Shown here one piece after another: positions 17,062 through 51,666 of a stretch of 57,863 bases of DNA. Source of the DNA: a virus (taxonomy: Duplodnaviria; Caudoviricetes). The stretch is taken from positions 1-57,863 of IMG/VR virus record IMGVR_UViG_3300037191_001144; one strand, given 5' to 3'. Numbering within the stretch: the first letter of the stretch is position 1; each line of letters opens with the position of its first letter. The translations under genes were made by a program, and so were the position numbers. The notes beneath the pieces are model-generated. The model saw only the letters and a list, made by a program, of their open reading frames with translations, did not search any database and was not told the origin of the DNA.

Positions 17062-17287
17062 TTATAGTATATGACTCGTTATGAATAAGCATAGAGTGTC
17101 CCGCATGTCTGTCGTAGTATATGCTGTCCTTGGACTTTATTTCCTGGACCCCATCGCCTGTCTGGACTACCTCTCCTTTTTTATACCTAAAAGAATTGGC
17201 GTCCTCGTTAGAAAGGATAAGTCCTGACTTAGTCTTTATCTCCTCCTCGATAGCTTTAATTAAAATATATTTTCCTACTGGCTTCAT
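17030..17287 (-). CDS. groES: Co-chaperonin GroES
   Basis: MKPVGKYILI...TKSGLIL...GEVVQTG...ITERDVVVVL; coupled to groEL. Confidence 0.88.
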   Translation of the reverse strand: MKPVGKYILIKAIEEEIKTKSGLILSNEDANSFRYKKGEVVQTGDGVQEIKSKDSIYYDRHAGHSMLIHNESYTIITERDVVVVL

Positions 17288-18870
17288 GCTCGTGCGTGTG
17301 TTACAATTGCGTTAGTACTTAAGATAGTAGTCGCTACACTCACCGCGTTGCGGAGGGCGTGCTTAGTTACTTTCAATGGATCTATAATCCCCATCTCGTA
17401 CATATCCCCAGCACACTCGTTCTTGACGTCGTACCCCCAGCTATCGTTCTTCGCGTTATGGAGAAGGGACGAAGGCTTGCCCGCGTTCTCTAAGATCTGT
17501 ACCGCAGGAGCCGAGAGAGTATGTTGTAGGATAGCGGTAGCCGCATCCTTATTCTTCCCACTGATAGGTGAATCCCCTAAGGCCATGCCCTCGTTATATA
17601 ACGCGAGGCCCCCACCTGGAAGGATACCCTCCTGAAGGGCCGAGCGCACCGCGCAGACCGCATCGTCCACCCTGTCGAACTTCTCCTTCTGCTCTATGTC
17701 CGAGACTCCCCCAACATATATACACCCTATACCGCCAGCTAAACTCGCTATACGGGAGTTGATAAAGTCACGCTCCCCCTTGTTCTTAGTACTAGACTGC
17801 TGCTCCTTGAGCTGCTCGATCCGAGTAGAGATCTCATCCGTGACCTGGTTGCTCTTGATAAGTACCGCACTCTCCTTCCCCACTATAGCCTTGTCCGCGT
17901 GACCGAGGTCCCCAAGGTTTATAAGGGAGAGATCGTCTCCCGTCTTCTCACTGAAATATTTTGCACCTACCGCAAGGGCGATGTCTTGCATGAGCTCATG
18001 CTGGCGGAACCCAAAACTCGGCGGGGGGACAGCACACAGCTGTAACCCATTACGCGCAACGTTGGCCGCTAAAGTGTTCACTACGTTCCCACTACACGGA
18101 GCAATAAGCAGAAGCTTCAGCCCTCCCTTGATAATAGGCTCGAGCACCGTCTGGATCTGGAGTACGTTGTTAACCTCGTGGTCACACACCAGAACACGCA
18201 CATCCTCTAAGACACACTCATCCTTCTTGTGGTTGTTGATGAAAAGATTGGACGAGTACCCACGGTCCATGCGGATACCCGTCGTGACCTCAGCATACGT
18301 CTTGTCCGTTTGGGAACGCTCGACAGTAACAATACCGTCTGACCCGACCTCGTTATATGCAGAGGCTATAATCTTCCCTAGCTCCTTGTCATTATTGGCA
18401 GAGATAGTAGCAACGTCTAAAAGACGAGACTTAGTAATCTTCTTGGACTTCTTCTCTAGACGAGCAATCACCTGCTCACTAAGGTCCTGGATAAATCGAA
18501 TCACCTCCGTCTTGTTATGATCAGGAGAGATGTACTTCATCCCAGCCTTGACTAACGCCTCCGTTAATACGATCGCCGTAGTAGTCCCGTCCCCCGCTAC
18601 ACTAGCAGTCTTCTCCGAGGCCTGCTTCATCATGCGAACCGCTAAGTTCTCTACCGCGTCGTTGAGGTCTATACTCCGAGCTACAGTGACGCCGTCCTTT
18701 GTGACAGTCATACCCTGTAAATGGTCCGTAGACTCTATAAGAACAGTCTGGCCACGAGGACCTAACGTACTCTTCACTGCCTTGGATAGCGTAGTGATAC
18801 CGTTAATAAGTTTTGTGCGGGCCTCGTCGTCGAAGCACAGTTCCTTTGGGATGTATCCTAACTCACTCAT
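17284..18870 (-). CDS. groEL: Chaperonin GroEL
   Basis: AVKSTLGPRG, VTKDGVTVA, AGDGTTTA, GILPGGG, GIIDPLKV. Confidence 0.97.
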   Translation of the reverse strand: MSELGYIPKELCFDDEARTKLINGITTLSKAVKSTLGPRGQTVLIESTDHLQGMTVTKDGVTVARSIDLNDAVENLAVRMMKQASEKTASVAGDGTTTAIVLTEALVKAGMKYISPDHNKTEVIRFIQDLSEQVIARLEKKSKKITKSRLLDVATISANNDKELGKIIASAYNEVGSDGIVTVERSQTDKTYAEVTTGIRMDRGYSSNLFINNHKKDECVLEDVRVLVCDHEVNNVLQIQTVLEPIIKGGLKLLLIAPCSGNVVNTLAANVARNGLQLCAVPPPSFGFRQHELMQDIALAVGAKYFSEKTGDDLSLINLGDLGHADKAIVGKESAVLIKSNQVTDEISTRIEQLKEQQSSTKNKGERDFINSRIASLAGGIGCIYVGGVSDIEQKEKFDRVDDAVCAVRSALQEGILPGGGLALYNEGMALGDSPISGKNKDAATAILQHTLSAPAVQILENAGKPSSLLHNAKNDSWGYDVKNECAGDMYEMGIIDPLKVTKHALRNAVSVATTILSTNAIVTHARA

Positions 18871-18892
18871 GTAGATTTAATTTAATTTCACC

Positions 18893-18900
18893 CAAAGGTA
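18893..18900 (-). promoter_or_regulatory. -7 promoter element (TACCTTTG) for groEL-groES
   Basis: TAnnTTTG upstream of the AT-rich groEL leader. Confidence 0.6.
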
Positions 18901-18920
18901 CAACACTAAACCTAAATACT

Positions 18921-19116
18921 ACTATGACAGAATGTCGAAAATAACTCCCCCTATATATATATATATAAAACTATTGTGGAGAGTGTAAAAAAAATCCTAC
19001 AAAAGTGGGAACAAATCGACATTTCGACATAATTTCCCTTAACTATCTTATTACTATATCTTTAGACTAAATAAAATCGACATAAAAACGACATAGAAAT
19101 GACAGTTATCGACATA
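18921..19116. repeat. Iteron-like element copy 1 (CGACAT repeats plus (AT)n tract), putative origin
   Basis: Five CGACAT plus one inverted copy and an (AT)n run; same layout as 30041-30226. Confidence 0.6.
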
Positions 19117-19121
19117 ATAAA

Positions 19122-19409
19122 CTAATATCCAGCCCTTCTTCCCCTTCTTGTTACCCTTAACTTAGTCTTAGTCTTGCCACTTCTTCTTACTTTGTCCTTC
19201 TGTTTGACTAATAAGTTTCCGTTAGAATCAAAAACCTTGAATACATTCTTAGTCTTAGACTTACCACCACGGTCAGTTTGAGAAGACTCGTTAACAGTAG
19301 TCTCCCCAGTAGATGTGTTCGTAACCTTATTAGTTTGGGTAACCTTCTTCCTCTTGCCCTTAATCGTGCTAGAAGAATTAGAGCTTACATCGTAGGACTT
19401 ACCGCTCAT
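19122..19409 (-). CDS. Basic S/T/K-rich hypothetical protein
   Basis: Start reassigned to MSGKS (ATGA overlap with upstream stop). Confidence 0.55.
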   Translation of the reverse strand: MSGKSYDVSSNSSSTIKGKRKKVTQTNKVTNTSTGETTVNESSQTDRGGKSKTKNVFKVFDSNGNLLVKQKDKVRRSGKTKTKLRVTRRGRRAGY

Positions 19410-19537
19410 CCCGAACAAGACTCACAGTCCTCAGGAGACTCAGTGCTACATACAGTCTCCCCAGATAAGATCTTGTCGTCCTGCTCCTTTAACTTCTTCT
19501 GATCTAAGAACAGAGGAGCGTCCAGGTCCTTGATCAT
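19406..19537 (-). CDS. 43-aa peptide ending in a CxxC tail (not in ORF track)
   Basis: MIKDLDAPLFLDQKKLKEQDDKILSGETVCSTESPEDCESCSG; ATGA-coupled on both sides. Confidence 0.65.
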   Translation of the reverse strand: MIKDLDAPLFLDQKKLKEQDDKILSGETVCSTESPEDCESCSG

Positions 19538-19716
19538 AAAGGCTTACGCATCTCAGCTAACTGGATGCCCTCAGCAATGCACTCAACCTTGTACTGGTGC
19601 TTGCGGTTCTTACGGACACGAGCAGCCATAGCAATGCCCGTCTCTCCATCAGGTCTGTTGTTTATGAGGCGACCGTCTTGGACAGTCAAGCCTGGTGTGT
19701 AGTTCTTATGTATCAT
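19534..19716 (-). CDS. Hypothetical protein
   Basis: 60 aa; -7 box TATCTTTG (19721-19728) 4 nt before ATG. Confidence 0.65.
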   Translation of the reverse strand: MIHKNYTPGLTVQDGRLINNRPDGETGIAMAARVRKNRKHQYKVECIAEGIQLAEMRKPL

Positions 19717-20181
19717 GTAGCAAAGATAGTGAAAATTTTTTTACGAGATATCTGGAAGTTGAGGGTTCTAGGTGATGTGACAGGCTGTGTGCCTCATATG
19801 AAAGTCGATGTTGATTCCGATGGGGGTCTTCGGTTTCAGAATTTCTTGTGGATTGTTTCAGGATTCCGCATAGCCTCGCGCCCTCTGTCTATGGTCTCTG
19901 TCTGTGCGCCCTATGTACGCTACGTCTCACGCATCCCCGAGCATTAAGTGCAGTAGTAATGGTATAGGTCTCACGCCCCGTATCCCGCCCCCTGAAGGGG
20001 GTAAACAAGGGAGGAAGGTGTACACAACCTCTCCTTAACACCTCCCCGACCCCTCACCTCACAAAATACTTTCAGGTAAGACATCTCTCTGTATCCCCTA
20101 TCTATGCTCATTCTACGCACATTGAATAAACTATTTTCGAAAGTTTCTTGCACTCATAGCATCAATACCCATTCTGTGAAC

Positions 20182-20189
20182 TATATTTG
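20182..20189 (+). promoter_or_regulatory. Putative early promoter -7 element (TATATTTG)
   Basis: TAnnTTTG immediately upstream of the first + strand early gene; -33 element unclear. Confidence 0.55.
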
Positions 20190-20217
20190 CACAAACGTTA
20201 AACAAATCATATACACC

Positions 20218-20289
20218 ATGCCTATACTACTACTCATCACTACCATCTTCACAATAATCGCATTCATTATTTCATTCATCACAGATTAA
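20218..20289 (+). CDS. 23-aa membrane peptide
   Basis: MPILLLITTIFTIIAFIISFITD after an A/C-rich leader. Confidence 0.4.
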   Translation: MPILLLITTIFTIIAFIISFITD

Positions 20290-20300
20290 TACACAACACA

Positions 20301-20552
20301 ATGACTATAACTGCCCACAACAAGATGCACCAGAGCAATGTCAACAAGGCTACGCAATGGTTAGAGAAGCACAACACATTCAATGCAGAGCGAGACCTAA
20401 TCGAGGATAGCTTAGAAGGTTATCCTGACGAGGATACTGCTTGGAGACGCATCAACAAGAAGTGCGAGGATTCATACGACAAGTACTTGTGCTATATGGA
20501 TGAGCTACCAAAGCGTGAGCAAGACCAAATAACCAAATCAGAATTATACTGA
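20301..20552 (+). CDS. Early hypothetical protein
   Basis: 83 aa, AATACACAACACA-ATG leader. Confidence 0.7.
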   Translation: MTITAHNKMHQSNVNKATQWLEKHNTFNAERDLIEDSLEGYPDEDTAWRRINKKCEDSYDKYLCYMDELPKREQDQITKSELY

Positions 20553-20602
20553 GTAACACTGACGAGTCCTTACTGGACGAAACGTCGAGAGACGTCTGTT
20601 AC
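20553..20602 (+). ncRNA. Type I hammerhead ribozyme HH1 (cleaves after GUC, C20596)
   Basis: GUAACA-CUGACGA-GUCC(UUACU)GGAC-GAAA-CGUC(GAGA)GACG-UC-UGUUAC: full catalytic core and three stems. Confidence 0.93.
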
Positions 20603-20626
20603 ATTTATTCATCAATACACAACACC

Positions 20627-20875
20627 ATGAACAAATCCGAAGAACTAAACTACAAACTGCATCTAGACCGAATTGACGTGTGCTACAAGGTAGACGCAAA
20701 AGGAAGACCATATTACCAAGAACTTTTCCACGAGATGATATCTTGCATTATTGATGCGGAGCTATCAACTACTGAGGAGAACAGAGAGCTAAGGAAAGCG
20801 CTTAAGGTTGCTACTATTCAGATGAAAATTCAAGACCTTGAGAACGAACTTGACACCTTAACAATCACTGAGTAA
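20627..20875 (+). CDS. Early hypothetical protein flanked by HH1 and HH2
   Basis: 82 aa; stop TAA lies inside HH2 stem I. Confidence 0.7.
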   Translation: MNKSEELNYKLHLDRIDVCYKVDAKGRPYYQELFHEMISCIIDAELSTTEENRELRKALKVATIQMKIQDLENELDTLTITE

Positions 20876-20921
20876 CACTGACGAGACTTCAATAGTCGAA
20901 ACGCTGAGAAGCGTCTGTTAC
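20872..20921 (+). ncRNA. Type I hammerhead ribozyme HH2 (cleaves after GUC, C20915)
   Basis: GUAACA-CUGACGA-GACU(UCAAU)AGUC-GAAA-CGCU(GAGA)AGCG-UC-UGUUAC; stems II and III covary with HH1. Confidence 0.93.
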
Positions 20922-20948
20922 AAATTTTATTCACTAATACACAATACA

Positions 20949-21173
20949 ATGAACAATTTTAGAGTAGTAAGAACGAGAATGATTGACATCGATAATGTAC
21001 ACATAGACATACACTTTGGAAGTGATGACAAAATAGTCGCATCAGGTCAGTACAACATCCGTACCAATTGGGCACACGTTACTCGTGAGGAGGAGTATGA
21101 ACGTATGCTTGGCGATGATTGGGAGGACCAGATGCAAGAGGCCATCGAAGAGAGGACGATAGAGATAGGTTAA
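20949..21173 (+). CDS. Early hypothetical protein
   Basis: 74 aa after the conserved leader. Confidence 0.7.
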   Translation: MNNFRVVRTRMIDIDNVHIDIHFGSDDKIVASGQYNIRTNWAHVTREEEYERMLGDDWEDQMQEAIEERTIEIG

Positions 21174-21179
21174 CCAACA

Positions 21180-21226
21180 AGCGGAGTCAGTGCGTGACTC
21201 GAACGGATTCGCTCCCGTTCTCCGCT
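21180..21226 (+). ncRNA. 47-nt three-way-junction, tRNA-elbow-like RNA, copy B1
   Basis: AGCGGA-GUCA(GUGCG)UGAC-UC-GAACGG(AUUCGCUC)CCGUUC-UCCGCU; covaries with B2 and B3. Confidence 0.8.
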
Positions 21227-21255
21227 CTAATTATTATTCACTAATACCCAATACA

Positions 21256-21438
21256 ATGAACGATTTAATTACAATTCAAGGCTTACAAGATGCTCTCAAC
21301 CTTTCAATGAGAGAAGTGAAAGACCTAAGAGATAAGTTAGAGATTACGGAAAAGTATCTCCATAACTATGTTATCCAAGCAGAAAGGACCATAGACACCC
21401 TGATGAAGCCTTATAGCGAGGCAGTACAAACCAAGTAA
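21256..21438 (+). CDS. Early hypothetical coiled-coil protein
   Basis: Start reassigned to ATG 21256 after the conserved leader; stop inside HH3 stem I. Confidence 0.7.
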   Translation: MNDLITIQGLQDALNLSMREVKDLRDKLEITEKYLHNYVIQAERTIDTLMKPYSEAVQTK

Positions 21439-21484
21439 CACTGATGAGACCTGAATGGTCGAAACGTCGTGAGACGTATGTTAC
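21435..21484 (+). ncRNA. Type I hammerhead ribozyme HH3 (cleaves after GUA, A21478)
   Basis: GUAACA-CUGAUGA-GACC(UGAAU)GGUC-GAAA-CGUC(GUGA)GACG-UA-UGUUAC. Confidence 0.93.
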
Positions 21485-21510
21485 AAATTTTATTCACTAA
21501 TCTAATACCT

Positions 21511-21750
21511 ATGACATTACAAGACAAGATTGAACACACAACCGCGATAGCTGATGCTATCCAGCGCAGAGAGGACTACTACACCCTTGAGATTTTAATG
21601 GGTGAAAGCCACCCTTTAGGTTATAGTCCTCAGACATCAGAACTGAGACAAATCGAACTACCTGCACCACAGATTGCAGGTACGATGGTCCAGCGCAGAA
21701 GCTACGCGATGGGCAAAGCTATGGACATCCTTAACACCCTATCACTATGA
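21511..21750 (+). CDS. Early hypothetical protein
   Basis: Start reassigned to MTLQDK after the conserved leader. Confidence 0.65.
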   Translation: MTLQDKIEHTTAIADAIQRREDYYTLEILMGESHPLGYSPQTSELRQIELPAPQIAGTMVQRRSYAMGKAMDILNTLSL

Positions 21751-22022
21751 AAAAACTTTATAGTATACATAGAAAGTGTCACGCCATCTACGAAGAGTTT
21801 GGAGGATACGACTACAACGATAAGATGATTTATCAGCTACGCGGACTCGACGCTGACATCGAAGAGTGTAGCGAGTGTATGGAAGAGTTGTCCAGCCAAA
21901 GAGAAAGAGAGGTACTATACAAAGGGGCTCTTGCTAACGCAGACGCTACTCTCCTATGGTTTGAATGGGTGAAGAAGATGATGGTCCTTAAATCAAAAGA
22001 GCCATCTGCCATCTTTGGTTAG
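21747..22022 (+). CDS. Early hypothetical protein
   Basis: 91 aa, ATGA-coupled. Confidence 0.65.
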   Translation: MKKLYSIHRKCHAIYEEFGGYDYNDKMIYQLRGLDADIEECSECMEELSSQREREVLYKGALANADATLLWFEWVKKMMVLKSKEPSAIFG

Positions 22023-22029
22023 ACCTACA

Positions 22030-22076
22030 AGCGGAGGTAGTGCGTACCTCGAGATGATTCGCCTCGTCTCTCCGCT
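22030..22076 (+). ncRNA. 47-nt three-way-junction RNA, copy B2
   Basis: AGCGGA-GGUA(GUGCG)UACC-UC-GAGAUG(AUUCGCCU)CGUCUC-UCCGCU. Confidence 0.8.
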
Positions 22077-22105
22077 CTAATTATTATTCACTAATCTAAT
22101 ACAAT

Positions 22106-22261
22106 ATGAATTTAGGATACATAGAACACAGAAAGGGCAAGTACTCTGTCCTCGTAGACATTATAGATTTAGGGCCTTTCGGAATGTCGCCTTGCTTCAG
22201 CAAAGGCTTTGACACACGAACAGAGGCAGAAGAACACTCGAACAAATTAAATTTAAAATGA
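22106..22261 (+). CDS. 51-aa early protein (not in ORF track)
   Basis: MNLGYIEHRKGKYSV... directly after the conserved leader. Confidence 0.6.
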   Translation: MNLGYIEHRKGKYSVLVDIIDLGPFGMSPCFSKGFDTRTEAEEHSNKLNLK

Positions 22262-22410
22262 TGACTACACAAGAGAAATTCGAATACACAAGAGGTTTGG
22301 AGAAGCAAATCGAAAAGCAAGAAGCATTAATCGAACACCTTAGAAAGACCATACTTGCTTACTCAGAAAGAATGGAAACTATAACTAAAATCAAAAACCT
22401 ATTAAAATGA
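22258..22410 (+). CDS. 50-aa early protein (not in ORF track)
   Basis: MMTTQEKFEYTRG...; ATGA-coupled on both sides. Confidence 0.55.
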   Translation: MMTTQEKFEYTRGLEKQIEKQEALIEHLRKTILAYSERMETITKIKNLLK

Positions 22411-22646
22411 AATACAAATCAGTATACGCAGTACACCACCTAAGCCATCTACTTGGCGATTGTGAGACCGATCTATTTTTCTCAGAGGCTGACGCGAGAG
22501 CGTTCTTTCTTAAGCTAATGATGGAGGTCGAAGACTCTTCAGACGAGGTTGAGATACTAACCGACGAAGCAGATGAATTGTACTACTGCAATGAGTCTTC
22601 AGGAGAGTACATCAGAATCGTAATAGAACAAATTAAAATCAAATAA
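22407..22646 (+). CDS. Early acidic hypothetical protein
   Basis: 79 aa, ATGA-coupled. Confidence 0.65.
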   Translation: MKYKSVYAVHHLSHLLGDCETDLFFSEADARAFFLKLMMEVEDSSDEVEILTDEADELYYCNESSGEYIRIVIEQIKIK

Positions 22647-22652
22647 AACACA

Positions 22653-22740
22653 TACACGTAATCTGTGGTGGTTCGCAGATGGATTGTTACTCTTTACGCA
22701 TAGAGAATAGCAATGGGGTTCGACTCCCCTACGTGTACCA
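22653..22740 (+). ncRNA. 8/4 tRNA-like RNA C1, ending in CCA
   Basis: Acceptor UACACGUA/UACGUGUA, T arm GGGG(UUCGACU)CCCC, 7-bp D-like arm with GG loop, elongated anticodon-like arm. Confidence 0.7.
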
Positions 22741-22766
22741 ATTAATATTCACTAATACATAATACA

Positions 22767-23054
22767 ATGACAGATAATTTAGGACAATACACGCTCCGCG
22801 AAGTGGAGAAGTTATTTAAGAAGTTAGACCGAATGAATATCGCAGTCCAGAAGAACTACGGGTACGACTTCGAGCACGGAGACAGACCCGCTTTGTGGAT
22901 TTGGACCGAGGGCATTACGGAGGAGACAGAGATGCATATAGACTACTATGCCAATCACGGATGCCCGAGTGAGAAACTTGCTCAGGTCTTATATGACGCT
23001 GAGTCTTATGCTGAGTGGGATAACTCTGCGGTATGTTGTATTTACAAAGTTTAA
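22767..23054 (+). CDS. Early hypothetical protein
   Basis: 95 aa after the conserved leader. Confidence 0.7.
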   Translation: MTDNLGQYTLREVEKLFKKLDRMNIAVQKNYGYDFEHGDRPALWIWTEGITEETEMHIDYYANHGCPSEKLAQVLYDAESYAEWDNSAVCCIYKV

Positions 23055-23059
23055 TCAGT

Positions 23060-23275
23060 ATGGAAGAGAAATTTAGCGACTGCTGTGGAGTCTCCTCTAG
23101 CGAGGAGGATATCCTACGCGATACTTGTCCTGACTGCAAGGAACATTGCGAGTTTAATAACGTAGCACACACGTGCGTCAATTGTGGAGACACAGAAGTA
23201 GAGGTTGAGGGTCAACCTTGCTCAATAGAATGCCACCGAGAGTATTGGGGCGAAATGAACAGAGATGAAAGATAA
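23060..23275 (+). CDS. Small Cys-rich, zinc-finger-like protein
   Basis: SDCC, CPDCKEHC, CVNC, CSIEC; start reassigned to MEEKF. Confidence 0.65.
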   Translation: MEEKFSDCCGVSSSEEDILRDTCPDCKEHCEFNNVAHTCVNCGDTEVEVEGQPCSIECHREYWGEMNRDER

Positions 23276-23483
23276 CAATATGGAATTAATGGACAGAATA
23301 ATAGCCTATGAAGAGGGCAACATCGACGAAGCTGGTATCCTTCAGCTATTTGCGGAGTTAATCAAGTCAGGAATGGCTTGGTCTCTTCAGGGTCACTACG
23401 GCAGAACTGCGAAAGCCTTAATAGACGCAGAATACATAAGTGAGGATGGACAAACCATCTTCTACCAAGACATAGTACAATGA
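23265..23483 (+). CDS. Small phage protein (LIKSGMAWSLQGHYGRTA motif)
   Basis: 72 aa with a distinctive motif seen in many phages (recollection). Confidence 0.7.
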   Translation: MKDNNMELMDRIIAYEEGNIDEAGILQLFAELIKSGMAWSLQGHYGRTAKALIDAEYISEDGQTIFYQDIVQ

Positions 23484-23638
23484 ATCAAAATACAAGATCT
23501 TTCAGGTACTGCATAACGACCCTCGCAATATGGGCAGTAGCATTCTACCTTATCCTTTGCCTAGTCTCTTGCTCGGCAACCAAGTCAGCCAACGTATACG
23601 GCAATCCAAATACTGATAGGTGCGAGGCATATTACTAA
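23480..23638 (+). CDS. 52-aa putative lipoprotein (not in ORF track)
   Basis: Hydrophobic stretch followed by lipobox LVSC; ATGA-coupled. Confidence 0.55.
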   Translation: MNQNTRSFRYCITTLAIWAVAFYLILCLVSCSATKSANVYGNPNTDRCEAYY

Positions 23639-23645
23639 CCCAACA

Positions 23646-23692
23646 AGCAGTGGTAGTGCGTACCGAGAAGAGATTCGCCCCTCTTCACTGCT
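23646..23692 (+). ncRNA. 47-nt three-way-junction RNA, copy B3
   Basis: AGCAGU-GGUA(GUGCG)UACC-GA-GAAGAG(AUUCGCCC)CUCUUC-ACUGCU; compensatory changes in P1 and P3. Confidence 0.8.
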
Positions 23693-23782
23693 CAATTGTT
23701 AATAACTTTGATAATATAATTAGGAATTAGACAAAGTACGAACTATCTTTACACTATCTATAAACATTTAATCTAATACATT

Positions 23783-24007
23783 ATGATACAAGTAACAAGT
23801 AAACTATTCGGTAGCCTTGAGTTACCACTTACCTTAGCTGAGTTTAGCAAAGACCAAGACTCTTGGGGGGCATTGAGTAAGCACATAGTATACCACATAT
23901 ATACTGACGAAGCTATTCGAGTACTACTCTACGCAGTAAAAGATGGCGAGACAGACACAAGCCAAGAGTTAGAGATTATAACCGAAAGAAATATGATATT
24001 CAGATGA
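23783..24007 (+). CDS. Hypothetical protein
   Basis: 74 aa with AATCTAATACATT-ATG leader. Confidence 0.65.
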   Translation: MIQVTSKLFGSLELPLTLAEFSKDQDSWGALSKHIVYHIYTDEAIRVLLYAVKDGETDTSQELEIITERNMIFR

Positions 24008-24138
24008 AGGTTACAATACACACAGACAAGCCTGAGTATGCGGTAGCTAAGAAGGTATGGGATGACATATTCAACAACGACACATTGATATACGACAAGT
24101 TCGACGAGTACTTCTACCACGAATTTTATAAAAACTAA
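24004..24138 (+). CDS. 44-aa hypothetical protein (not in ORF track)
   Basis: MKVTIHTDKPEYAV...; ATGA-coupled. Confidence 0.5.
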   Translation: MKVTIHTDKPEYAVAKKVWDDIFNNDTLIYDKFDEYFYHEFYKN

Positions 24139-24142
24139 TCAG

Positions 24143-24391
24143 ATGAACTACAACAAAAGATACACGATGGAGGAGAACGGGGTCACATACGACTGCGAGG
24201 TAAACGTAAACACCGAAGAAAGCTACGGAAGTTTTGAAATCTACGACGTAGACGATTCAGATGGGTACTACGAGGCGGGTGGCTTATGGTTTGAGGGAAA
24301 CGTACTCAGAGACTACGATGGAGTATACGAACTACCTGAGTGCGTAAAGGCTACGCTCACACAATGGAACTTTAATTTAGAAGAGATATAA
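24143..24391 (+). CDS. Acidic hypothetical protein (GGLWF...DYDGVYELP)
   Basis: 82-aa ORF. Confidence 0.7.
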   Translation: MNYNKRYTMEENGVTYDCEVNVNTEESYGSFEIYDVDDSDGYYEAGGLWFEGNVLRDYDGVYELPECVKATLTQWNFNLEEI

Positions 24392-24396
24392 CAACA

Positions 24397-24506
24397 TACA
24401 CGTAGCATTGTAGGTTTGCAAAAACTTCAGGATACAATGTAGGCGTTCCCTCAATAGGTTTTCTGAATTTCCTATACGGGTGCGAGGTTCGACTCCTCTA
24501 CGTGTA
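24397..24506 (+). ncRNA. 8/4 tRNA-like RNA C2 with enlarged interior
   Basis: Same acceptor as C1 (UACACGUA/UACGUGUA); T arm GAGG(UUCGACU)CCUC; internal stems GCAUUGUA/UACAAUGU and a GCAA tetraloop hairpin. Confidence 0.68.
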
Positions 24507-24529
24507 CTCATTAATTAAACTCAAATAAA

Positions 24530-24817
24530 ATGAAAGACACAAACCAAGTACAAGAAGCCCTTGAAAGCAAGGCAAAGAAAGAACTGCAAAAGATTGTAGA
24601 CGAGTTTACGGAGGCGCTTACCAAACTAGATAGTACATACCGTTCAGCGACGTCGTATGTTATGAAAGAAAGTCGTAGCACAGAAGCCAAAGTGTTTACT
24701 TATGTCACACCTTCTAACTTAGACCATATGCTTCACGAGATGCTCGTAGACGCTTACCTAAAACCTATGGTACACAAAAAAACACAAGAGTTATTAAACA
24801 AACTTGAATTAATATAA
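24530..24817 (+). CDS. Hypothetical protein
   Basis: 95-aa ORF with AT-rich leader. Confidence 0.65.
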   Translation: MKDTNQVQEALESKAKKELQKIVDEFTEALTKLDSTYRSATSYVMKESRSTEAKVFTYVTPSNLDHMLHEMLVDAYLKPMVHKKTQELLNKLELI

Positions 24818-24821
24818 CATC

Positions 24822-25016
24822 ATGAAGAAGAAAGAAGAATTTACTTTTGAAGTCGTCCTCAAGGACGCAATGGAAAACACTAAGTACTACCAAGATCGAT
24901 TGATACAGAACGAAGACGAAAAGATGGAGAGATACTATCAGTCTAAGTATATGGAGGCTCTGTATTATCAGAAAGGATTAGTCGTAGGCCAGAAACTACT
25001 AAGCAAAGAGTCATGA
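24822..25016 (+). CDS. Hypothetical protein
   Basis: 64-aa ORF in operon. Confidence 0.6.
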   Translation: MKKKEEFTFEVVLKDAMENTKYYQDRLIQNEDEKMERYYQSKYMEALYYQKGLVVGQKLLSKES

Positions 25017-25303
25017 ATGATAAAGACAACAAAATAATTGCCCTATTCATGGGGTTGAAACCCCACCATCAGGATGCGGGTTACCTAATAGACGAGAGCA
25101 AAGATGAAGGCTACGAAGCCATACACGAATCGTGTTTCTTATACGACTCGTCATGGGATTGGTTAGTCCCCGTAGTACAGAAGATTGAGGAAGAGTGCGG
25201 GGGTGTACCTAAGCAATTGCTTGACGTCAGTTTCTATGATGAGATAGGAGATGTATACCAAGCAGTAGTAGAATTTATTAAAACATACAACGATGAAAAA
25301 TAA
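25013..25303 (+). CDS. SWDWLxPV-family paralog 1
   Basis: NKIIALFMG...YDSSWDWLVPVVQKI...AVVEFIK. Confidence 0.75.
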   Translation: MNDKDNKIIALFMGLKPHHQDAGYLIDESKDEGYEAIHESCFLYDSSWDWLVPVVQKIEEECGGVPKQLLDVSFYDEIGDVYQAVVEFIKTYNDEK

Positions 25304-25502
25304 TAAACTAATAGGAGACTTTATGGACATCCGAAGTACGGGGTTGTCTGTATATAAAGAGAGCGCATACAAATACCACGAGTCATGGGATTGGTTGATG
25401 CCCGTAGTTGAGAGGATAGGTGATGAGAATCTTTTATCTATTGACATAGACGTAGCATACGATAGAGTAGTAGAATTTATTAAAGAATATAACAATGAAT
25501 AG
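25293..25502 (+). CDS. SWDWLxPV-family paralog 2
   Basis: NKLIGDFM...YHESWDWLMPVVERI...VVEFIK. Confidence 0.75.
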   Translation: MKNNKLIGDFMDIRSTGLSVYKESAYKYHESWDWLMPVVERIGDENLLSIDIDVAYDRVVEFIKEYNNE

Positions 25503-25788
25503 AGAAATATATAACATCATTTTAATACACACCGCACGGACGTGGGAAAGGATACGTATAACACGACCTCATCAGGAGATGCCATTCGATAACATAGGTT
25601 CAGCGGAGCAGATAGAAAACATCGCGTCTACCATATACAACGGCGACATCATACAAGGTTTTCTTAACGCGCCTGATGATCTATCTAAGGATAGATGGTG
25701 GATAGACAAAACAATAGATGGGATGTCCGATGTGTACATAGAGAATGAGGCAGAACGAATTATTAACAACGTATACCTACGACTATGA
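25495..25788 (+). CDS. Hypothetical protein
   Basis: 97 aa, overlapping operon organisation. Confidence 0.6.
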   Translation: MNREIYNIILIHTARTWERIRITRPHQEMPFDNIGSAEQIENIASTIYNGDIIQGFLNAPDDLSKDRWWIDKTIDGMSDVYIENEAERIINNVYLRL

Positions 25789-26009
25789 AAGATAAAATAT
25801 ACATAGACAACTCACGATTCATGGAGTTAATAGATGAGATTGTAACGCAGATAACTGAGGCTGAATTTAAGGAGCAAACAAGTAAGTTAGCTGAAAATGG
25901 AGACTGGGTGTTACAAGGAGAAGCACAAGACTTCTATAACGAGAAGTACAAGGAGTACGAAAACCTATTTAATAACATAGCAAATATACTTAGCGATGCA
26001 AGACAATAA
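25785..26009 (+). CDS. Hypothetical protein
   Basis: 74 aa, ATGA-coupled. Confidence 0.6.
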   Translation: MKDKIYIDNSRFMELIDEIVTQITEAEFKEQTSKLAENGDWVLQGEAQDFYNEKYKEYENLFNNIANILSDARQ

Positions 26010-26096
26010 TTTAAGATACTGCCACGTGTTTACGGCAAAACCTACATCCGTTAACCAGCGAGGTTTGGTGGTGGTATCTTTCAAACCAATAACATC

Positions 26097-26369
26097 ATGA
26101 AAGATAACAAACTAATAGCAGAATTTATGGGAGGCGAAAAACCTGAACGAACATCAGACCTTCGCCACTTTATAGAAGAACATCATAACTACCACGACTC
26201 TTGGGATTGGTTGATGCCCGTAATAGAGAAGATCGAAAATAACGGACTCGATCCACACGGAATGATTGACAACTCTTTAAGGAAGAACAATCAAAAGAGA
26301 TGGCGTTCAATCGAGGACACATATAACGTAGCAGTATACTTAATAAACATATACAACAATGAAAGATAA
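26097..26369 (+). CDS. SWDWLxPV-family paralog 3
   Basis: MKDNKLIAEFMG...YHDSWDWLMPVIEKI. Confidence 0.75.
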   Translation: MKDNKLIAEFMGGEKPERTSDLRHFIEEHHNYHDSWDWLMPVIEKIENNGLDPHGMIDNSLRKNNQKRWRSIEDTYNVAVYLINIYNNER

Positions 26370-26670
26370 CAAACTAATAGCAGAATTTATGGGGTACAAC
26401 TACGACAAGTGTATAGCGTCAACAGACAAGTCTACACCCCTCGATATGCAAGGCGAATACCTTACGCCTGATGGAGACTCGGTATCCGAGAGTGAATTAG
26501 AATTTCACGAGTCGTGGGACTGGCTCATGCCAGTACTTAAAAAGATTAAACTTCAGATACACCCCAACAACATGGGTATGTGGCGAAAGGTAACTCAACC
26601 TATAGGGTACGACATCCACGAGGTACACCAAGAAGCAGTAGAGTTTATCAAAAGATATAGCAATGAGTAG
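26359..26670 (+). CDS. SWDWLxPV-family paralog 4
   Basis: MKDNKLIAEFMG...FHESWDWLMPVLKKI; first 34 nt identical to paralog 3. Confidence 0.75.
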   Translation: MKDNKLIAEFMGYNYDKCIASTDKSTPLDMQGEYLTPDGDSVSESELEFHESWDWLMPVLKKIKLQIHPNNMGMWRKVTQPIGYDIHEVHQEAVEFIKRYSNE

Positions 26671-26778
26671 TAAACGTGTACCAATTTGGTACACAAAGAA
26701 TACATGAGCAGTATAATGAAAACGATTGAGCAGTAAGTGAATGAACTCACCAAATAGCATAACGAAAAGAGAATTAAA

Positions 26779-27522
26779 ATGGAAATTACAAATTTTAAAA
26801 CACACGAAACTAAAAACTATGAGATGTTTGAGTTTCTTGATACAAACAGAGAGCCTAGTCAAAGAATTATTAACAACTTACTTAAAAGCATTAAGCAAAT
26901 CGGTGTGCAAATACCTATAATCGTTAATGAAGATAAATACATTGTCGATGGACAGCATAGGTTTTGGGCTTTAAGGCAACTTGGATATGTAGTGCCATAT
27001 ATTGTAAGCAAAGCTTGGAAAAATGACCAGCATACGATAGCTATAAACAACACTAGTTGTAAGTGGACGGCTATGGATTTCGCAAATTATGCATCTGAAA
27101 ACGGAAATCTTGACGTTCAAGAAGCAATAAAGATTGCTAAAGGTTGGAGAAAAGACTCTAAGAATAGATTAAGTTTAATAAGTGGGTTAGAAATACTAAT
27201 GAAGGGTAGATCACGCAATGGGTTATTATCAAAACTAAAAAACATGACATACAGAATAGACTGTAAGTCGGGGGCGGAAGTTTTTGATACGCTTGTTGTT
27301 ATGAACGAACACCAAATGAAAGCAAGTCCTTTTTCTCAGAAAATAACTAGGTCGATTAAAATATTGCACCACGACAAGGGTGGGTTAAACAATGATGCAA
27401 TTAATCTCATGTGTCAAAAGAACTATATACAAAATTATAGTAAAGAAAATGATCAGTTAGAATATTTTATAGACATATATAACGAGGCTTTAAGTAAGGG
27501 GACACTAGGAGTGAAAGGATAA
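26779..27522 (+). CDS. ParB/Srx N-terminal domain protein
   Basis: SIKQIGVQIPIIV...IVDGQHRFWAL motif. Confidence 0.75.
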   Translation: MEITNFKTHETKNYEMFEFLDTNREPSQRIINNLLKSIKQIGVQIPIIVNEDKYIVDGQHRFWALRQLGYVVPYIVSKAWKNDQHTIAINNTSCKWTAMDFANYASENGNLDVQEAIKIAKGWRKDSKNRLSLISGLEILMKGRSRNGLLSKLKNMTYRIDCKSGAEVFDTLVVMNEHQMKASPFSQKITRSIKILHHDKGGLNNDAINLMCQKNYIQNYSKENDQLEYFIDIYNEALSKGTLGVKG

Positions 27523-27532
27523 ATAAACGACC

Positions 27533-27617
27533 ATAGTAAGGCACGACTTGGAGGATGCTGGGTGTAGCGATTGTTGGTTCAGGAGTTACACACATGGGTT
27601 CGATTCCCACTTACTAT
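27533..27617 (+). ncRNA. 8/4 tRNA-like RNA C3
   Basis: Acceptor AUAGUAAG/CUUACUAU, T arm UGGG(UUCGAUU)CCCA, internal stem GUGUAGC/GUUACAC. Confidence 0.65.
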
Positions 27618-50862: not shown

Positions 50863-51666
50863 TTACGGATAACTTTGCATAACATCTGCCCCAACAGCAA
50901 ATAATTCCATAGGGATGGTGTCGTCGTTTTTCAAAGTGAAGGATAAATAGAATCCTCTTGCTCCGTGAGACTCTGAGACAGCGTTCTTATAGAAGAATAT
51001 AAAGTCTGTTACACTAGGGAGCGTCCCCACAGGGCCTGGAGGATTATCCGAGGGTTCGGTTACGGTCATATCTACTTGAATAAACCCACTTACTTTGTCT
51101 ACAGCAACCACCTGACCCACATACAAAGAAGTTCCAGTAGCTACACCAGAGCCATCGATCGCCGTAGAGTACGCGTAGTCCCCTACGCTTAGTATATCAC
51201 CCAAAGGGACAGTAAAGAATAACTGCAAAGAAGTGCCAGAGCCAATTACTTGAGTACACTGCCCTATACCGTTTGTCGATCGAAGCTTAAAGTCTTTGGT
51301 CCCGATGTTAGAGCGGATAAAAGTAAACCACTCGCCCTCCTTCTCCTCAAAGTAAGTGTCAAGCATAGAGCCTACACTTAAATTAGTGGAGAGAGCCGTG
51401 CACTCCCAGGACCGATCCCCCTCTAAAGACATAGTCTTGAATAGTTTAATATTCTGGGGAGTGTCGTTTATTACGCTCTGCATAGTAGAAGAGTACTGTA
51501 CGCCGTAGTAGTTATTCCGTATAGCGTTAGTATTATGACGGTACATGTCCCCGTCCTTCCAGGTATAGAAGAAGCTGTTCATGCCCCTCATGTACTCAGG
51601 TTCAAAACTATAGAACGAGGGCCACCCCTGGGCATTATTGCTATATGATAATGTATAATCTGCCAT
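50863..51666 (-). CDS. Tail protein (resembles the C-terminal part of a nozzle/stabilisation protein)
   Basis: TLSYS...GWPSFYSFEPEYM...KLFKTMSLEG...EKEGEWF...GARGFY. Confidence 0.55.
   Translation of the reverse strand: MADYTLSYSNNAQGWPSFYSFEPEYMRGMNSFFYTWKDGDMYRHNTNAIRNNYYGVQYSSTMQSVINDTPQNIKLFKTMSLEGDRSWECTALSTNLSVGSMLDTYFEEKEGEWFTFIRSNIGTKDFKLRSTNGIGQCTQVIGSGTSLQLFFTVPLGDILSVGDYAYSTAIDGSGVATGTSLYVGQVVAVDKVSGFIQVDMTVTEPSDNPPGPVGTLPSVTDFIFFYKNAVSESHGARGFYLSFTLKNDDTIPMELFAVGADVMQSYP

What the first reader, a model, noticed from the sequence alone, without database searches (positions are those of the whole stretch)
21180..23692. Unrecognised 47-nt three-way-junction RNA motif (B1-B3)
Three copies have identical geometry: P1 6 bp, P2 4 bp with invariant loop GUGCG, a 2-nt linker, and P3 6 bp with loop AUUCGCNN stacked directly on P1, followed by C. 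All three stems show compensatory changes (AGCGGA/UCCGCU vs AGCAGU/ACUGCU; GUCA/UGAC vs GGUA/UACC; three different P3 sequences). P1+P3 equals 12 bp, the tRNA acceptor+T ruler. The loops could form a D/T-like elbow or pair GCG with CGC. It occupies the same slot as the hammerheads, so it is either a minimal tRNA mimic (mascRNA- or Y RNA-like) or a candidate new self-cleaving ribozyme.
Basis: partly seen in the sequence, partly recalled or inferred. Interest (0 to 1): 0.85.

Follow-up and report, generated by a model that had tools for sequence, protein, structure and literature searches.

The report
Mini tRNA-like RNA punctuating phage genes
A 47-base folded RNA repeated between small genes of a marine phage is a real, conserved and undescribed RNA family that most likely mimics the top half of a tRNA, so that host tRNA-processing enzymes cut the phage's long transcripts where other copies of the same slot use self-cutting hammerhead ribozymes.

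Summary
Three copies (21180-21226, 22030-22076, 23646-23692, + strand) share a three-way junction: P1 6 bp, P2 4 bp with loop GUGCG, a 2-nt linker, and P3 6 bp with loop AUUCGCYY. No Rfam family matches them. Pattern and covariance-model searches found about 80 distinct relatives, nearly all in marine viral or metagenome contigs. Covariation is strong: 98.2% of cells pair, 10 of 16 pairs carry double changes, and 0 of 500 shuffles reach this. The two loops can form 3 Watson-Crick pairs, one of which covaries.

The phage probably infects Flavobacteriia. Its small early genes are separated by gaps of about 80 nt that hold one of three elements: a type I hammerhead, this motif, or a tRNA-like element with a canonical T arm. 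The tRNA-like elements include 40-44-nt minis. Orthologous genes are preceded by different element types in different genomes, and the motif and the hammerhead core never share a gap (0 of 78).

My best reading (about 0.5) is an anticodon-arm-less tRNA mimic that acts as an RNase P/RNase Z processing signal. A new self-cleaving ribozyme is not excluded (about 0.12). No processing data could be obtained.

The parts
21180..21226 (+). B1: the 47-nt three-way-junction RNA. P1 21180-21185/21221-21226; P2 21186-21189/21195-21198 with loop GUGCG 21190-21194; linker UC 21199-21200; P3 21201-21206/21215-21220 with loop AUUCGCUC 21207-21214. It lies 6 nt after the stop codon of ORF 20949-21173 and is followed by C-UAAU and the leader.
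   Evidence: (92.4 bits, E 3e-29)
22030..22076 (+). B2: same architecture, with P2 GGUA/UACC and P3 GAGAUG/CGUCUC (includes G-U pairs, so it is read on the + strand). It lies 7 nt after the stop codon of ORF 21747-22022.
   Evidence: (89.8 bits)
23646..23692 (+). B3: a subtype with P1 AGCAGU/ACUGCU and linker GA. It lies after the last small ORF of a gene block (23480-23638). It is followed not by the leader but by about 90 nt that contain a promoter-like box.
   Evidence: 76.3 bits; MFE equals the proposed fold; the same subtype occurs in L146, L160, L178
20553..20602 (+). Type I hammerhead HH1 in the same kind of slot. Stem I contains the stop codon. Core CUGACGAG ... CGAAAC ... GUC, then the cleavage site.
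   Evidence: (RF00163, 31.0 bits, below the gathering score of 34)
20872..20921 (+). Type I hammerhead HH2.
   Evidence: (27.6 bits, below the gathering score)
21437..21486 (+). Type I hammerhead HH3 (core CUGAUGAG ... CGAAAC ... GUA). It was found by consensus pattern and by eye only; Rfam did not report it.
22654..22740 (+). TLS1: a tRNA-shaped RNA in the same slot. It has a 7-8-bp acceptor stem, a long D-like stem, an 'anticodon' arm closed by a 4-nt loop, the T arm GGGG UUCGACU CCCC, and the tail ACCA. It cannot decode.
   Evidence: tRNA-Sec model, 31.8 bits, below the gathering score of 47; ARAGORN finds none; MFE cloverleaf, z -3.9
24398..24506 (+). TLS2: a larger tRNA-like element with acceptor ACACGUAG/CUACGUGU and T arm GAGG UUCGACU CCUC.
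27533..27617 (+). TLS3: a tRNA-like element with acceptor AUAGUAAG/CUUACUAU and T arm UGGG UUCGAUU CCCA, followed by CUAAAA.
   Evidence: 15-nt match to the tmRNA 3' end, 12 bits; z only -0.6
21234..21245 (+). Conserved leader TTATTCACTAAT, 10-15 nt before the ATG. The same 12-mer follows HH2 (20927), HH3 (21490), B2 (22084) and, with 1 mismatch, TLS1 (22745).
   Evidence: 5 copies within 1 mismatch, all + strand, all within 20.9-22.8 kb
23744..23751 (+). TAtcTTTa box downstream of B3. It resembles the Bacteroidota -7 promoter element (consensus TAnnTTTG, recalled from memory). Clearer copies (CTATATTTGCA, CTATCTTTGC) occupy the same place in relatives.
   Evidence: inference only

Best explanation
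The motif is a cis-acting RNA-processing ('punctuation') signal. It imitates the acceptor/T half and elbow of a tRNA without being a tRNA.

Proposed structure: P1 (6 bp) stacks on P3 (6 bp) to give the 12-bp helix that tRNA-processing enzymes measure. P2 folds back beside P3. Its loop GUGCG pairs with CGC of the P3 loop (3 Watson-Crick pairs), capping the helix as the D-loop/T-loop elbow does.

Proposed action: host RNase P cuts at the 5' edge of P1, and/or RNase Z or another endonuclease cuts just after P1, near C-UAAU. This splits the phage's polycistronic early transcript into single-gene mRNAs that begin with the conserved short leader. It may also leave a folded cap on the upstream mRNA. 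Type I hammerheads do the same job autonomously in neighbouring slots.

Shown here: the fold, its covariation, the family, the shared slot and its interchangeability.
Inferred: the stacking, the elbow mimicry, the enzymes involved and the cut sites.
For: 1. The fold is real and selected. 98.2% of cells pair, 10 of 16 pairs have double changes, and 0 of 500 shuffles reach this. G-U pairs occur only when the + strand is read.
2. The loop-loop helix (A4 columns 25-45, 26-44, 27-43) can form in 77 of 77 sequences. Pair 27-43 changes from G-C to A-U in 2 sequences. The same GCA/UGC state appears in 5 weaker, P2-degenerate hits.
3. The slot is shared. Gaps of about 80 nt between small co-directional ORFs hold a hammerhead, this motif, or a T-arm element. 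The window holds 3 of each.
4. The elements are interchangeable. Of 29 downstream-gene clusters with 2 or more members, 9 have mixed upstream element types. Examples after deduplication: one family has 15 B and 7 hammerhead; another has 9 hammerhead and 3 B; another has 2 T-arm, 1 B and 1 hammerhead.
5. The elements are mutually exclusive. None of 78 distinct motif copies has a hammerhead core within 90 nt.
6. The neighbours form a graded tRNA-like series: an 87-nt cloverleaf with a 4-nt 'anticodon' loop, and 40-44-nt minis with a 6-7-bp acceptor, about 11 nt of single strand containing AUGGU, and a T arm with UUCGAUU. One mini type shares the acceptor AGCAGT/ACTGCT with B3.
7. Conservation follows the tRNA pattern. 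P3's loop-closing G-C is kept in 75 of 77 and the junction G-C in 74 of 77, while the four inner pairs vary freely. P2's first pair is G-C or G-U in 77 of 77.
8. A relative (L210, identical to L180) carries a 13-nt hairpin between P2 and P3, where the anticodon arm sits in a tRNA.
9. Established knowledge (recalled, not tested here): bacterial RNase P and RNase Z accept acceptor/T-arm minihelices. tRNA-like structures serve as processing signals in mitochondrial tRNA punctuation, in plant mitochondrial t-elements and in MALAT1/mascRNA.
Against: - There is no direct evidence of cleavage. The only RNA data were assembled contigs from one study, which cannot show RNA ends. One such contig spans B3 with both flanks.
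- L3 (AUUCGCYY, 8 nt) is not a canonical T loop: the position equivalent to A58 is C.
- No tRNA model scores the motif.
- P2 abuts P1 with no spacer, unlike U8/N9 in tRNA, so the three-dimensional shape may be a 'tuning fork' rather than an L.
- The loop-loop covariation rests on what may be a single evolutionary event.
- The first P1 pair (A-U) never varies in the main family and is unpaired in the divergent subtype (3 of 77). The stack may therefore be 11 bp, not 12.
- Some minis sit right after promoter-like boxes, and B3 sits at the end of a gene block. This fits end-protection or release of a small RNA as well as it fits punctuation.
- The 5' flank CCAACA and the two loops are more conserved than a purely shape-read signal seems to need. 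However, the family is young and most members were retrieved with loop-containing patterns.
Confidence: 0.5

Rival explanations
1. A new class of small self-cleaving ribozyme. The kissing loops and the conserved flanks (ACA before P1, C-UAAU after it) would build an active site, and the RNA would cut itself as the hammerheads in the neighbouring slots do.
For: - It occupies the same slot as hammerheads, is interchangeable with them at orthologous genes, and is never found together with one. This kind of association led to twister-sister, pistol and hatchet (recalled).
- It has many near-invariant unpaired nucleotides.
- It has no Rfam match.
Against: - The junction has only a 2-nt linker, which varies (UC, UA, UU, GA), and tolerates a 13-nt hairpin insertion.
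- The conserved loop nucleotides are accounted for by pairing with each other.
- The slot is also filled by plainly tRNA-shaped RNAs, which need host enzymes. Sharing the slot therefore does not imply self-cleavage.
- Loop invariance is partly due to how sequences were retrieved.
- One RNA-library contig spans B3 uncut, though it could be DNA or precursor.
Confidence: 0.12
2. An uncleaved structural element. It would be a folded cap that stabilises mRNA ends against exonucleases, or a binding site for a phage or host protein that regulates the neighbouring genes.
For: - B3 sits at the 3' end of a gene block, before a promoter-like region, and related minis sit right after promoter-like boxes.
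- The loops are strongly conserved.
- A contig from an RNA library spans B3 intact.
Against: - It does not explain why a hammerhead, whose only known activity is cleavage, replaces it before orthologous genes, or why the two never co-occur.
- No candidate binding protein was identified.
Confidence: 0.15
3. The released 47-nt RNA is itself the product. It would be an abundant tRNA-elbow decoy, with 3-6 copies per operon, that titrates a host tRNA-binding factor such as a defence nuclease or a processing or modification enzyme.
For: - There are several nearly identical copies per genome (3 in the window; 5 in L263/L135).
- The surface-forming loops are conserved more than the stems.
- The neighbouring tRNA-shaped RNAs cannot decode.
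Against: - Hammerheads in the same slot release no such product.
- The motif has no anticodon arm, which is the usual target of tRNA-directed defence nucleases (recalled).
- No data show accumulation of a small RNA.
Confidence: 0.1
4. A riboswitch-like aptamer, or a DNA-level site such as a recombination or protein-binding site.
For: - The overall shape (P1 with two side-by-side hairpins joined by loop-loop pairs) resembles the purine-riboswitch aptamer (recalled).
- Cassette boundaries in relatives fall at these elements (joints).
Against: - The junction has no room for a pocket (0, 2 and 0 nt) and its 2 nt vary.
- No Rfam riboswitch matches.
- Compensatory changes and strand-specific G-U pairs point to RNA rather than DNA.
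- All copies are co-directional with the genes.
Confidence: 0.03

Closest known systems
tRNA-like processing signals: the mitochondrial tRNA punctuation model, plant mitochondrial t-elements, and MALAT1/mascRNA (recalled from knowledge; punctuation papers seen only as search listings)
   Same: A tRNA-shaped fold inside a long transcript marks where RNase P and RNase Z cut, defining mRNA ends. The element need not decode. The 12-bp acceptor/T stack is kept.
   Different: Those elements keep a recognisable T loop and usually a cloverleaf. This motif has no anticodon arm, has an 8-nt non-T loop, and replaces the D/T elbow by 3 Watson-Crick loop-loop pairs. It lies in a DNA phage of bacteria and alternates with ribozymes. 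Cleavage has not been shown here.
The tRNA-like domain of tmRNA and the 40-44-nt mini tRNA-like elements found here in relatives
   Same: An acceptor stem stacked on a T-type arm, the D region reduced to a short element that contacts the T-type loop, and no anticodon arm. They occupy the same genomic slot and, in one case, have the same acceptor sequence.
   Different: tmRNA and the minis have the canonical UUCGAnU T loop and a single-stranded GG element. The motif has a P2 hairpin with loop GUGCG and the loop AUUCGCYY. There is no evidence of aminoacylation or of an encoded CCA.
Type I hammerhead ribozyme (Rfam RF00163); arrays of hammerheads flanking phage genes (Perreault et al. 2011, PMC3088659, passages read)
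   Same: A three-way junction of about 50 nt between phage genes. It is interchangeable with hammerheads before orthologous genes. The presumed result is the same: processing of long phage transcripts.
   Different: The motif has none of the hammerhead core (CUGANGA, GAAA, UH) and essentially no unpaired junction. No hammerhead model matches it.
Purine riboswitch aptamer 'tuning fork' (recalled)
   Same: P1 coaxial with P3, and P2 packed beside P3 through Watson-Crick loop-loop pairs.
   Different: The riboswitch has long, conserved junction strands that form a ligand pocket. Here the junction is 0/2/0 nt and variable. Rfam gives no match.
Model hairpin substrates of bacterial RNase P (acceptor/T-stem-loop minihelices; recalled; review PMC11143913 seen only as a search listing)
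   Same: A 12-bp helix capped by a loop with a single-stranded 3' tail is enough for RNase P cleavage in vitro.
   Different: Those are laboratory constructs with a 3' RCCA tail. The natural motif has a C-UAA tail and an extra P2 hairpin.

Membership tests
tRNA (Rfam CL00001; ARAGORN) | Cloverleaf with an anticodon arm and a 7-nt anticodon loop | tested here: not met
   ARAGORN finds 0 genes in the window. No tRNA-clan hit falls on the three copies at E up to 10 or up to 5. Only 2 nt lie between P2 and P3.
tRNA (Rfam CL00001; ARAGORN) | T loop UUCRANY (7 nt, with a U54-A58 pair) closed by G53-C61 | tested here: not met
   L3 is AUUCGCYY (8 nt), with C where A58 would be. The closing G-C pair is present in 75 of 77.
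tRNA-like structure (functional class) | An acceptor-type stem stacked on a T-type stem, 12 bp in all, with no nucleotide between their 3' strands | tested here: met
   P1 6 bp and P3 6 bp are contiguous on the 3' side in all 66 sequences of A1. Caveat: the first P1 pair never varies and is unpaired in 3 of 77.
tRNA-like structure (functional class) | A tertiary contact between the D-type and T-type loops (elbow) | tested here: inconclusive
   Three loop-loop Watson-Crick pairs are possible in 77 of 77. Only one pair covaries, in 2 sequences. There is no structural probing.
tRNA-like structure (functional class) | Recognition and cleavage by RNase P and/or RNase Z | not testable with these tools
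   The RNA runs were available only as assembled contigs.
Hammerhead ribozyme (RF00163, RF00008, RF03152) | Conserved core CUGANGA ... GAAA ... UH at a three-way junction | tested here: not met
   The core is absent from the sequence. cmscan hits fall only on 20553-20602 and 20872-20921, not on the motif.
Other described self-cleaving ribozymes in Rfam 15 (twister, twister-sister, pistol, hatchet, HDV-like, hairpin, and others) | A match to the family covariance model | tested here: not met
   No match on the three copies at gathering score, at E up to 10 in 18000-27000, or at E up to 5 in the whole window.
Self-cleaving ribozyme (any class) | Site-specific self-scission that gives 2',3'-cyclic phosphate and 5'-OH ends | not testable with these tools
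   This needs in vitro transcription or end-specific RNA-seq.
Purine-type riboswitch | Conserved junction strands that form a ligand pocket | tested here: not met
   The junction is 0/2/0 nt and the linker varies among UC, UA, UU and GA. There is no Rfam hit.

The most novel reading that the evidence does not exclude
The motif is a previously unknown class of small self-cleaving ribozyme. It would be the smallest three-way-junction ribozyme known, with an active site built by a 3-bp loop-loop kiss and the conserved flanks, used by marine Flavobacteriia phages interchangeably with hammerheads. Even if it is not a ribozyme, the phage group may show a new 'mixed punctuation' system, in which ribozymes and progressively miniaturised tRNA mimics are swapped freely at the same gene boundaries.
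Probability: 0.12. Interest if true: 0.9.

Novelty: new variant of a known kind. Interest (0 to 1): 0.62.

Why it matters
If the reading is right, this is the most reduced natural tRNA mimic used as a processing signal in a bacterial virus. At 47 nt it has no anticodon arm and no T loop, and its elbow is rebuilt from a loop-loop helix.

The mimic sits in a system where ribozyme-based and host-enzyme-based cleavage modules replace each other before the same genes. That gives a natural experiment on what RNase P and RNase Z minimally need, and a compact part for RNA engineering. It would also explain how phages of SD-poor Bacteroidota turn long early transcripts into single-gene mRNAs with a uniform leader.

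The family is absent from Rfam, and six literature searches found no description of it. If instead it cleaves itself, it is a new ribozyme class.

Tried and rejected
- Rfam: no hit on the motif at gathering score or in E-value scans.
- ARAGORN: 0 tRNAs in the window. In 36 related loci it found one ordinary tRNA-Arg in L190.
- The loose 14-base pattern in viral contigs returned mostly chance matches: only 3 of the first 80 loci had the fold.
- The cellular-genome scan gave 14 pattern matches. Thirteen had no fold and one lay on a 61.6-kb phage-like contig in a MAG. This gave no host assignment.
- blastn of the region against cultured phages found no match.
- Regions of two GenBank relatives lack the motif with filters off, best E 0.19. 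One relative is uncultured (primase 70% identical); the other is the cultured Flavobacterium phage elemoE.
- Of 80 primase-related viral loci, only 1 has canonical copies and 4 have a divergent form. The motif is therefore confined to a sub-lineage.
- RNA runs: the look-up of sequencing runs was busy three times and then answered. The 4 metatranscriptome runs, all from one study, are kept only as contigs of 90-95% similar relatives. They show no ends. Contig breaks inside TLS1 look like repeat-induced assembly breaks. One contig spans B3. This is no evidence for or against processing or transcription.
- A terminator is rejected because no U tract follows P1.
- A riboswitch and a DNA-level site are rejected (see rival explanations).
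- The idea that a C(U/C/A)A tail after the acceptor mimics CCA in all tRNA-like elements did not hold up. Only 12 of 23 automatically parsed T-arm elements have it, and that parser was imperfect.
- Supplementary tables of PMC10690425 (10,006 candidate viral structured RNAs from IMG/VR) could not be opened, so I cannot say whether the motif is listed there.

Full report
**1. What is there**

The window is a 57,863-bp IMG/VR virus record. Between 20.3 and 27.7 kb lies a block of small + strand ORFs. Each has P1 of 6 bp, P2 of 4 bp with loop GUGCG, a 2-nt linker, and P3 of 6 bp with loop AUUCGCYY. P3's 3' strand runs directly into P1's 3' strand, and a C follows.

The loop-only pattern occurs 3 times against 0.18 expected. 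Folded alone, the RNAs are moderately stable (z -1.95 to -2.6). For B1 and B2 the MFE shifts the register by two pairs, whereas for B3 the MFE is the proposed fold.

**2. It is a family, with covariation**

Retrieval:
- Pattern scans were run on viral contigs, metagenome contigs and one genome per prokaryote species.
- When 207 loci were held, 98 structured instances (at least 13 of 16 pairs) gave 47 distinct cores.
- Nearly all came from marine viral or metagenome contigs.
- In cellular genomes, 13 of 14 pattern matches had no fold. The single real one lies on a 61.6-kb phage-like contig. This doubles as a negative control.

Covariation in 66 distinct 69-nt sequences (alignment A1):
- 98.2% of cells pair, and 10 of 16 pairs carry changes on both sides.
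- The covariation score is 0.497 against 0.172 for shuffles, and 0 of 500 shuffles reach it.
- With partners slid by 1-3 columns, only 41-56% of cells pair.
- The inner P3 pairs take 3-5 different pair types.
- G-U pairs fit only the + strand.

A covariance model (R1) finds only the three copies in the window with filters off. It gives 129 matches in 96 related loci.

Rfam 15 has nothing on the motif at gathering score or at permissive E-values.

**3. Variants that inform the structure**

Most relatives were retrieved with patterns that contain the loops, so loop invariance is partly ascertainment. A flank-only pattern and the model recovered variants:
- Of 92 distinct sequences in alignment A2, 76 parse as the canonical architecture.
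- Of those 76, 69 have L2 GUGCG and L3 AUUCGC: 58 with linker UC, 3 with UA, 3 with GA (the B3 subtype) and 2 with UU. A further 3 combine L2 GUGCG with L3 ACUCGC.
- 5 have L2 GCGCG.
- 2 have L2 GCGCA together with L3 AUUUGC.
- A more distant form in four primase-related phages has L2 AUGCG and L3 CUUCGCAA.

Written as a pseudoknot, the loop-loop helix (A4 columns 25-45, 26-44, 27-43) is paired in 77 of 77 sequences. Pair 27-43 switches from G-C to A-U in 2 of them. Five weaker, P2-degenerate hits also carry GCA...UGC.

One relative (L210, identical to L180) has a 13-nt hairpin inserted between P2 and P3, which makes a four-way junction.

**4. Surroundings: a punctuated operon**

The window holds three kinds of element in the same kind of gap:
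- Type I hammerheads at 20553-20602 and 20872-20921 score 31.0 and 27.6 bits, just under the gathering score of 34. A third at 21437-21486 has the full consensus core.
- tRNA-shaped RNAs lie at 22654-22740, 24398-24506 and 27533-27617, all with canonical T arms.
- The first of these folds as a cloverleaf (z -3.9) whose 'anticodon' loop has 4 nt, so it cannot decode. ARAGORN reports none of them.
- The three copies of the motif.

Hammerheads, the motif and TLS1 are each followed by the same leader TTATTCACTAAT, 10-15 nt before the ATG.

In relatives the same picture recurs. For example, L151 has gaps of 71-95 nt that hold, in order: a hammerhead, B, B, a B variant, B, a 42-nt mini tRNA-like element, and another hammerhead.

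Among 78 distinct motif copies with full flanks:
- The stop codon lies 6-7 nt before P1 in 65.
- The downstream context is the leader in 46, a conserved GAGTCTCC-type hairpin in 18, a promoter-like region in 5, and other in 9.
- None has a hammerhead core within 90 nt.

**5. Interchangeability**

I clustered the first ORF downstream of every element, after removing duplicates: 79 B, 47 hammerhead and 39 T-arm. Of 29 clusters with two or more members, 9 are preceded by different element types in different genomes:
- One family has 15 B and 7 hammerhead. The window's own copy has HH3.
- Another has 9 hammerhead and 3 B.
- Another has 2 T-arm, 1 B and 1 hammerhead.

The element detectors were regular expressions, so counts are approximate. 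The qualitative result is robust.

**6. The tRNA-like series**

Relatives carry 40-44-nt minis. Each has:
- an acceptor stem of 6-7 bp;
- about 11 nt of single strand that always contains AUGGU, which I read as the D-loop GG (inference);
- a T arm of 5-6 bp with UUCGAUU or UUCGACU.

Their stacks are 7+5 = 12 bp, and the motif's is 6+6. One mini type has the acceptor (U)AGCAGU/ACUGCU(A), the same as B3.

In the motif, the conserved pairs are P3's loop-closing G-C (75 of 77), P3's junction G-C (74 of 77) and P2's first G-C or G-U (77 of 77). The pairs between them vary. From memory, this mirrors G53-C61 and G10-C25 of tRNAs.

Taken together, the motif looks like the end of a reduction series: cloverleaf, then mini with T loop, then mini in which the elbow is rebuilt from a loop-loop helix.

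**7. Host**

- Portal, terminase, GroEL and primase/helicase families were found.
- So were a crAss-type muzzle domain and a CHU_C type IX secretion signal domain.
- The nearest cultured phages by primase all infect Flavobacteriia: Flavobacterium, Nonlabens, Polaribacter, Cellulophaga, Maribacter and Tenacibaculum.
- Promoter-like TAnnTTTG boxes (consensus recalled) and the absence of Shine-Dalgarno sequences before the ATGs fit Bacteroidota.

**8. Mechanism**

Best reading, about 0.5: a tRNA-elbow/minihelix mimic that recruits host RNase P and/or RNase Z (or another endonuclease acting next to it). This splits the polycistronic early RNA into mRNAs with a uniform leader, the same outcome that hammerheads give autonomously.

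- Shown: the fold, the family, the slot, interchangeability and mutual exclusion.
- Inferred: coaxial stacking, elbow mimicry, the enzymes and the cut sites.

Rivals:
- a new self-cleaving ribozyme (0.12);
- an uncleaved cap or protein site (0.15);
- a released decoy RNA (0.10);
- a riboswitch or DNA site (0.03).

The ribozyme rival is weakened by three things: the near-absence of junction nucleotides, the variable linker and tolerated insertion, and the presence in the same slot of RNAs that clearly depend on host enzymes. It cannot be excluded without a cleavage assay.

**9. RNA data**

Four metatranscriptome runs from one study hold parts of the region, but only as assembled contigs of 90-95% similar relatives.
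- They cannot show RNA ends.
- One contig spans B3 with both flanks.
- Joints in these contigs show that relatives have the same cassettes in other orders, with breakpoints at the leader and punctuation elements.

This is no evidence on processing.

**10. Literature**

Six full-text searches found no description of this motif, or of tRNA-like elements alternating with hammerheads in phages.
- Perreault et al. 2011 (PMC3088659, passages) report multiple hammerheads flanking genes in prophages and propose processing of long phage transcripts.
- PMC10690425 (passages) lists 10,006 candidate structured RNAs from IMG/VR, including tRNA-like ones. Its supplements were closed, so overlap cannot be checked.
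- Weinberg et al. 2017 (PMC5737381, term search only) has no relevant passage.

**11. Verdict**

- Novelty: a new variant of a known kind (tRNA-like processing signals), undescribed in Rfam.
- Interest: 0.62.

Noticed in passing
window 22654-22740, 24398-24506, 27533-27617 (+): Three tRNA-shaped RNAs with canonical T arms but non-decoding bodies. TLS1 has a 4-nt 'anticodon' loop. ARAGORN misses all three, and only TLS1 gets a sub-threshold tRNA-Sec hit. They occupy the same slot as the hammerheads and the motif.
   Followed up: partly
L151:3884-3925, L136:616-658, L131(-), L129(-), L296:3355-3394 and 5314-5353: A class of 40-44-nt mini tRNA-like elements: a 6-7-bp acceptor, about 11 nt of single strand containing AUGGU, and a T arm with UUCGAUU. 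In relatives they sit between genes, right after promoter-like boxes, or at operon ends. They may deserve their own family model.
   Followed up: partly
window 26013-26080 (+): A conserved long hairpin or multibranch element (GAUACUGCCAC ... GUGGUGGUAUC, MFE -22.1 kcal/mol, z -2.1) lies in an intergenic gap. Clear homologues with compensatory-looking changes occur in L151 and L132.
   Followed up: partly
window 20927, 21234, 21490, 22084, 22745 (+): A 12-nt leader, TTATTCACTAAT, sits 10-15 nt upstream of the start codons of the punctuated genes. Its role is untested: it could be a translation-initiation leader or a promoter for a phage polymerase.
   Followed up: no
relatives, e.g. L186, L144, L191, L131 (gaps listed): In a sister lineage the leader is replaced by a conserved perfect hairpin (GAGUCUCC-loop-GGAGACUC, or GAGUUCAC-CGA-GUGAACUC) directly before start codons. 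It occurs with or without a preceding motif.
   Followed up: no
window 20603/21234, 20903/21234, 22253/21171, 23767/24143 (joints): Contigs of related phages join these points, so whole gene cassettes are present, absent or reordered between relatives. The breakpoints fall at the punctuation element or leader, which suggests these repeats act as recombination seams.
   Followed up: no
window 36675-47798 (-) and 52627-57405 (-): Two giant ORFs of 3707 and 1592 aa lie beside a protein with a crAss-type muzzle C-terminal domain (50863-51666). They may be ejected cargo proteins or a virion RNA polymerase of a crAss-like podovirus. They were not analysed.
   Followed up: no
window 17284-18870 (-): A phage-encoded GroEL-type chaperonin (PHROG 5725, E 5e-134).
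   Followed up: no
L133:574-640, L191:2082-2148, L169, L124:586-652, L196:1686-1752: Weak model hits (24-33 bits) keep P1, P3 and the GCA/UGC loop complementarity but have lost P2 pairing. They may be decaying copies or a two-stem subtype.
   Followed up: partly
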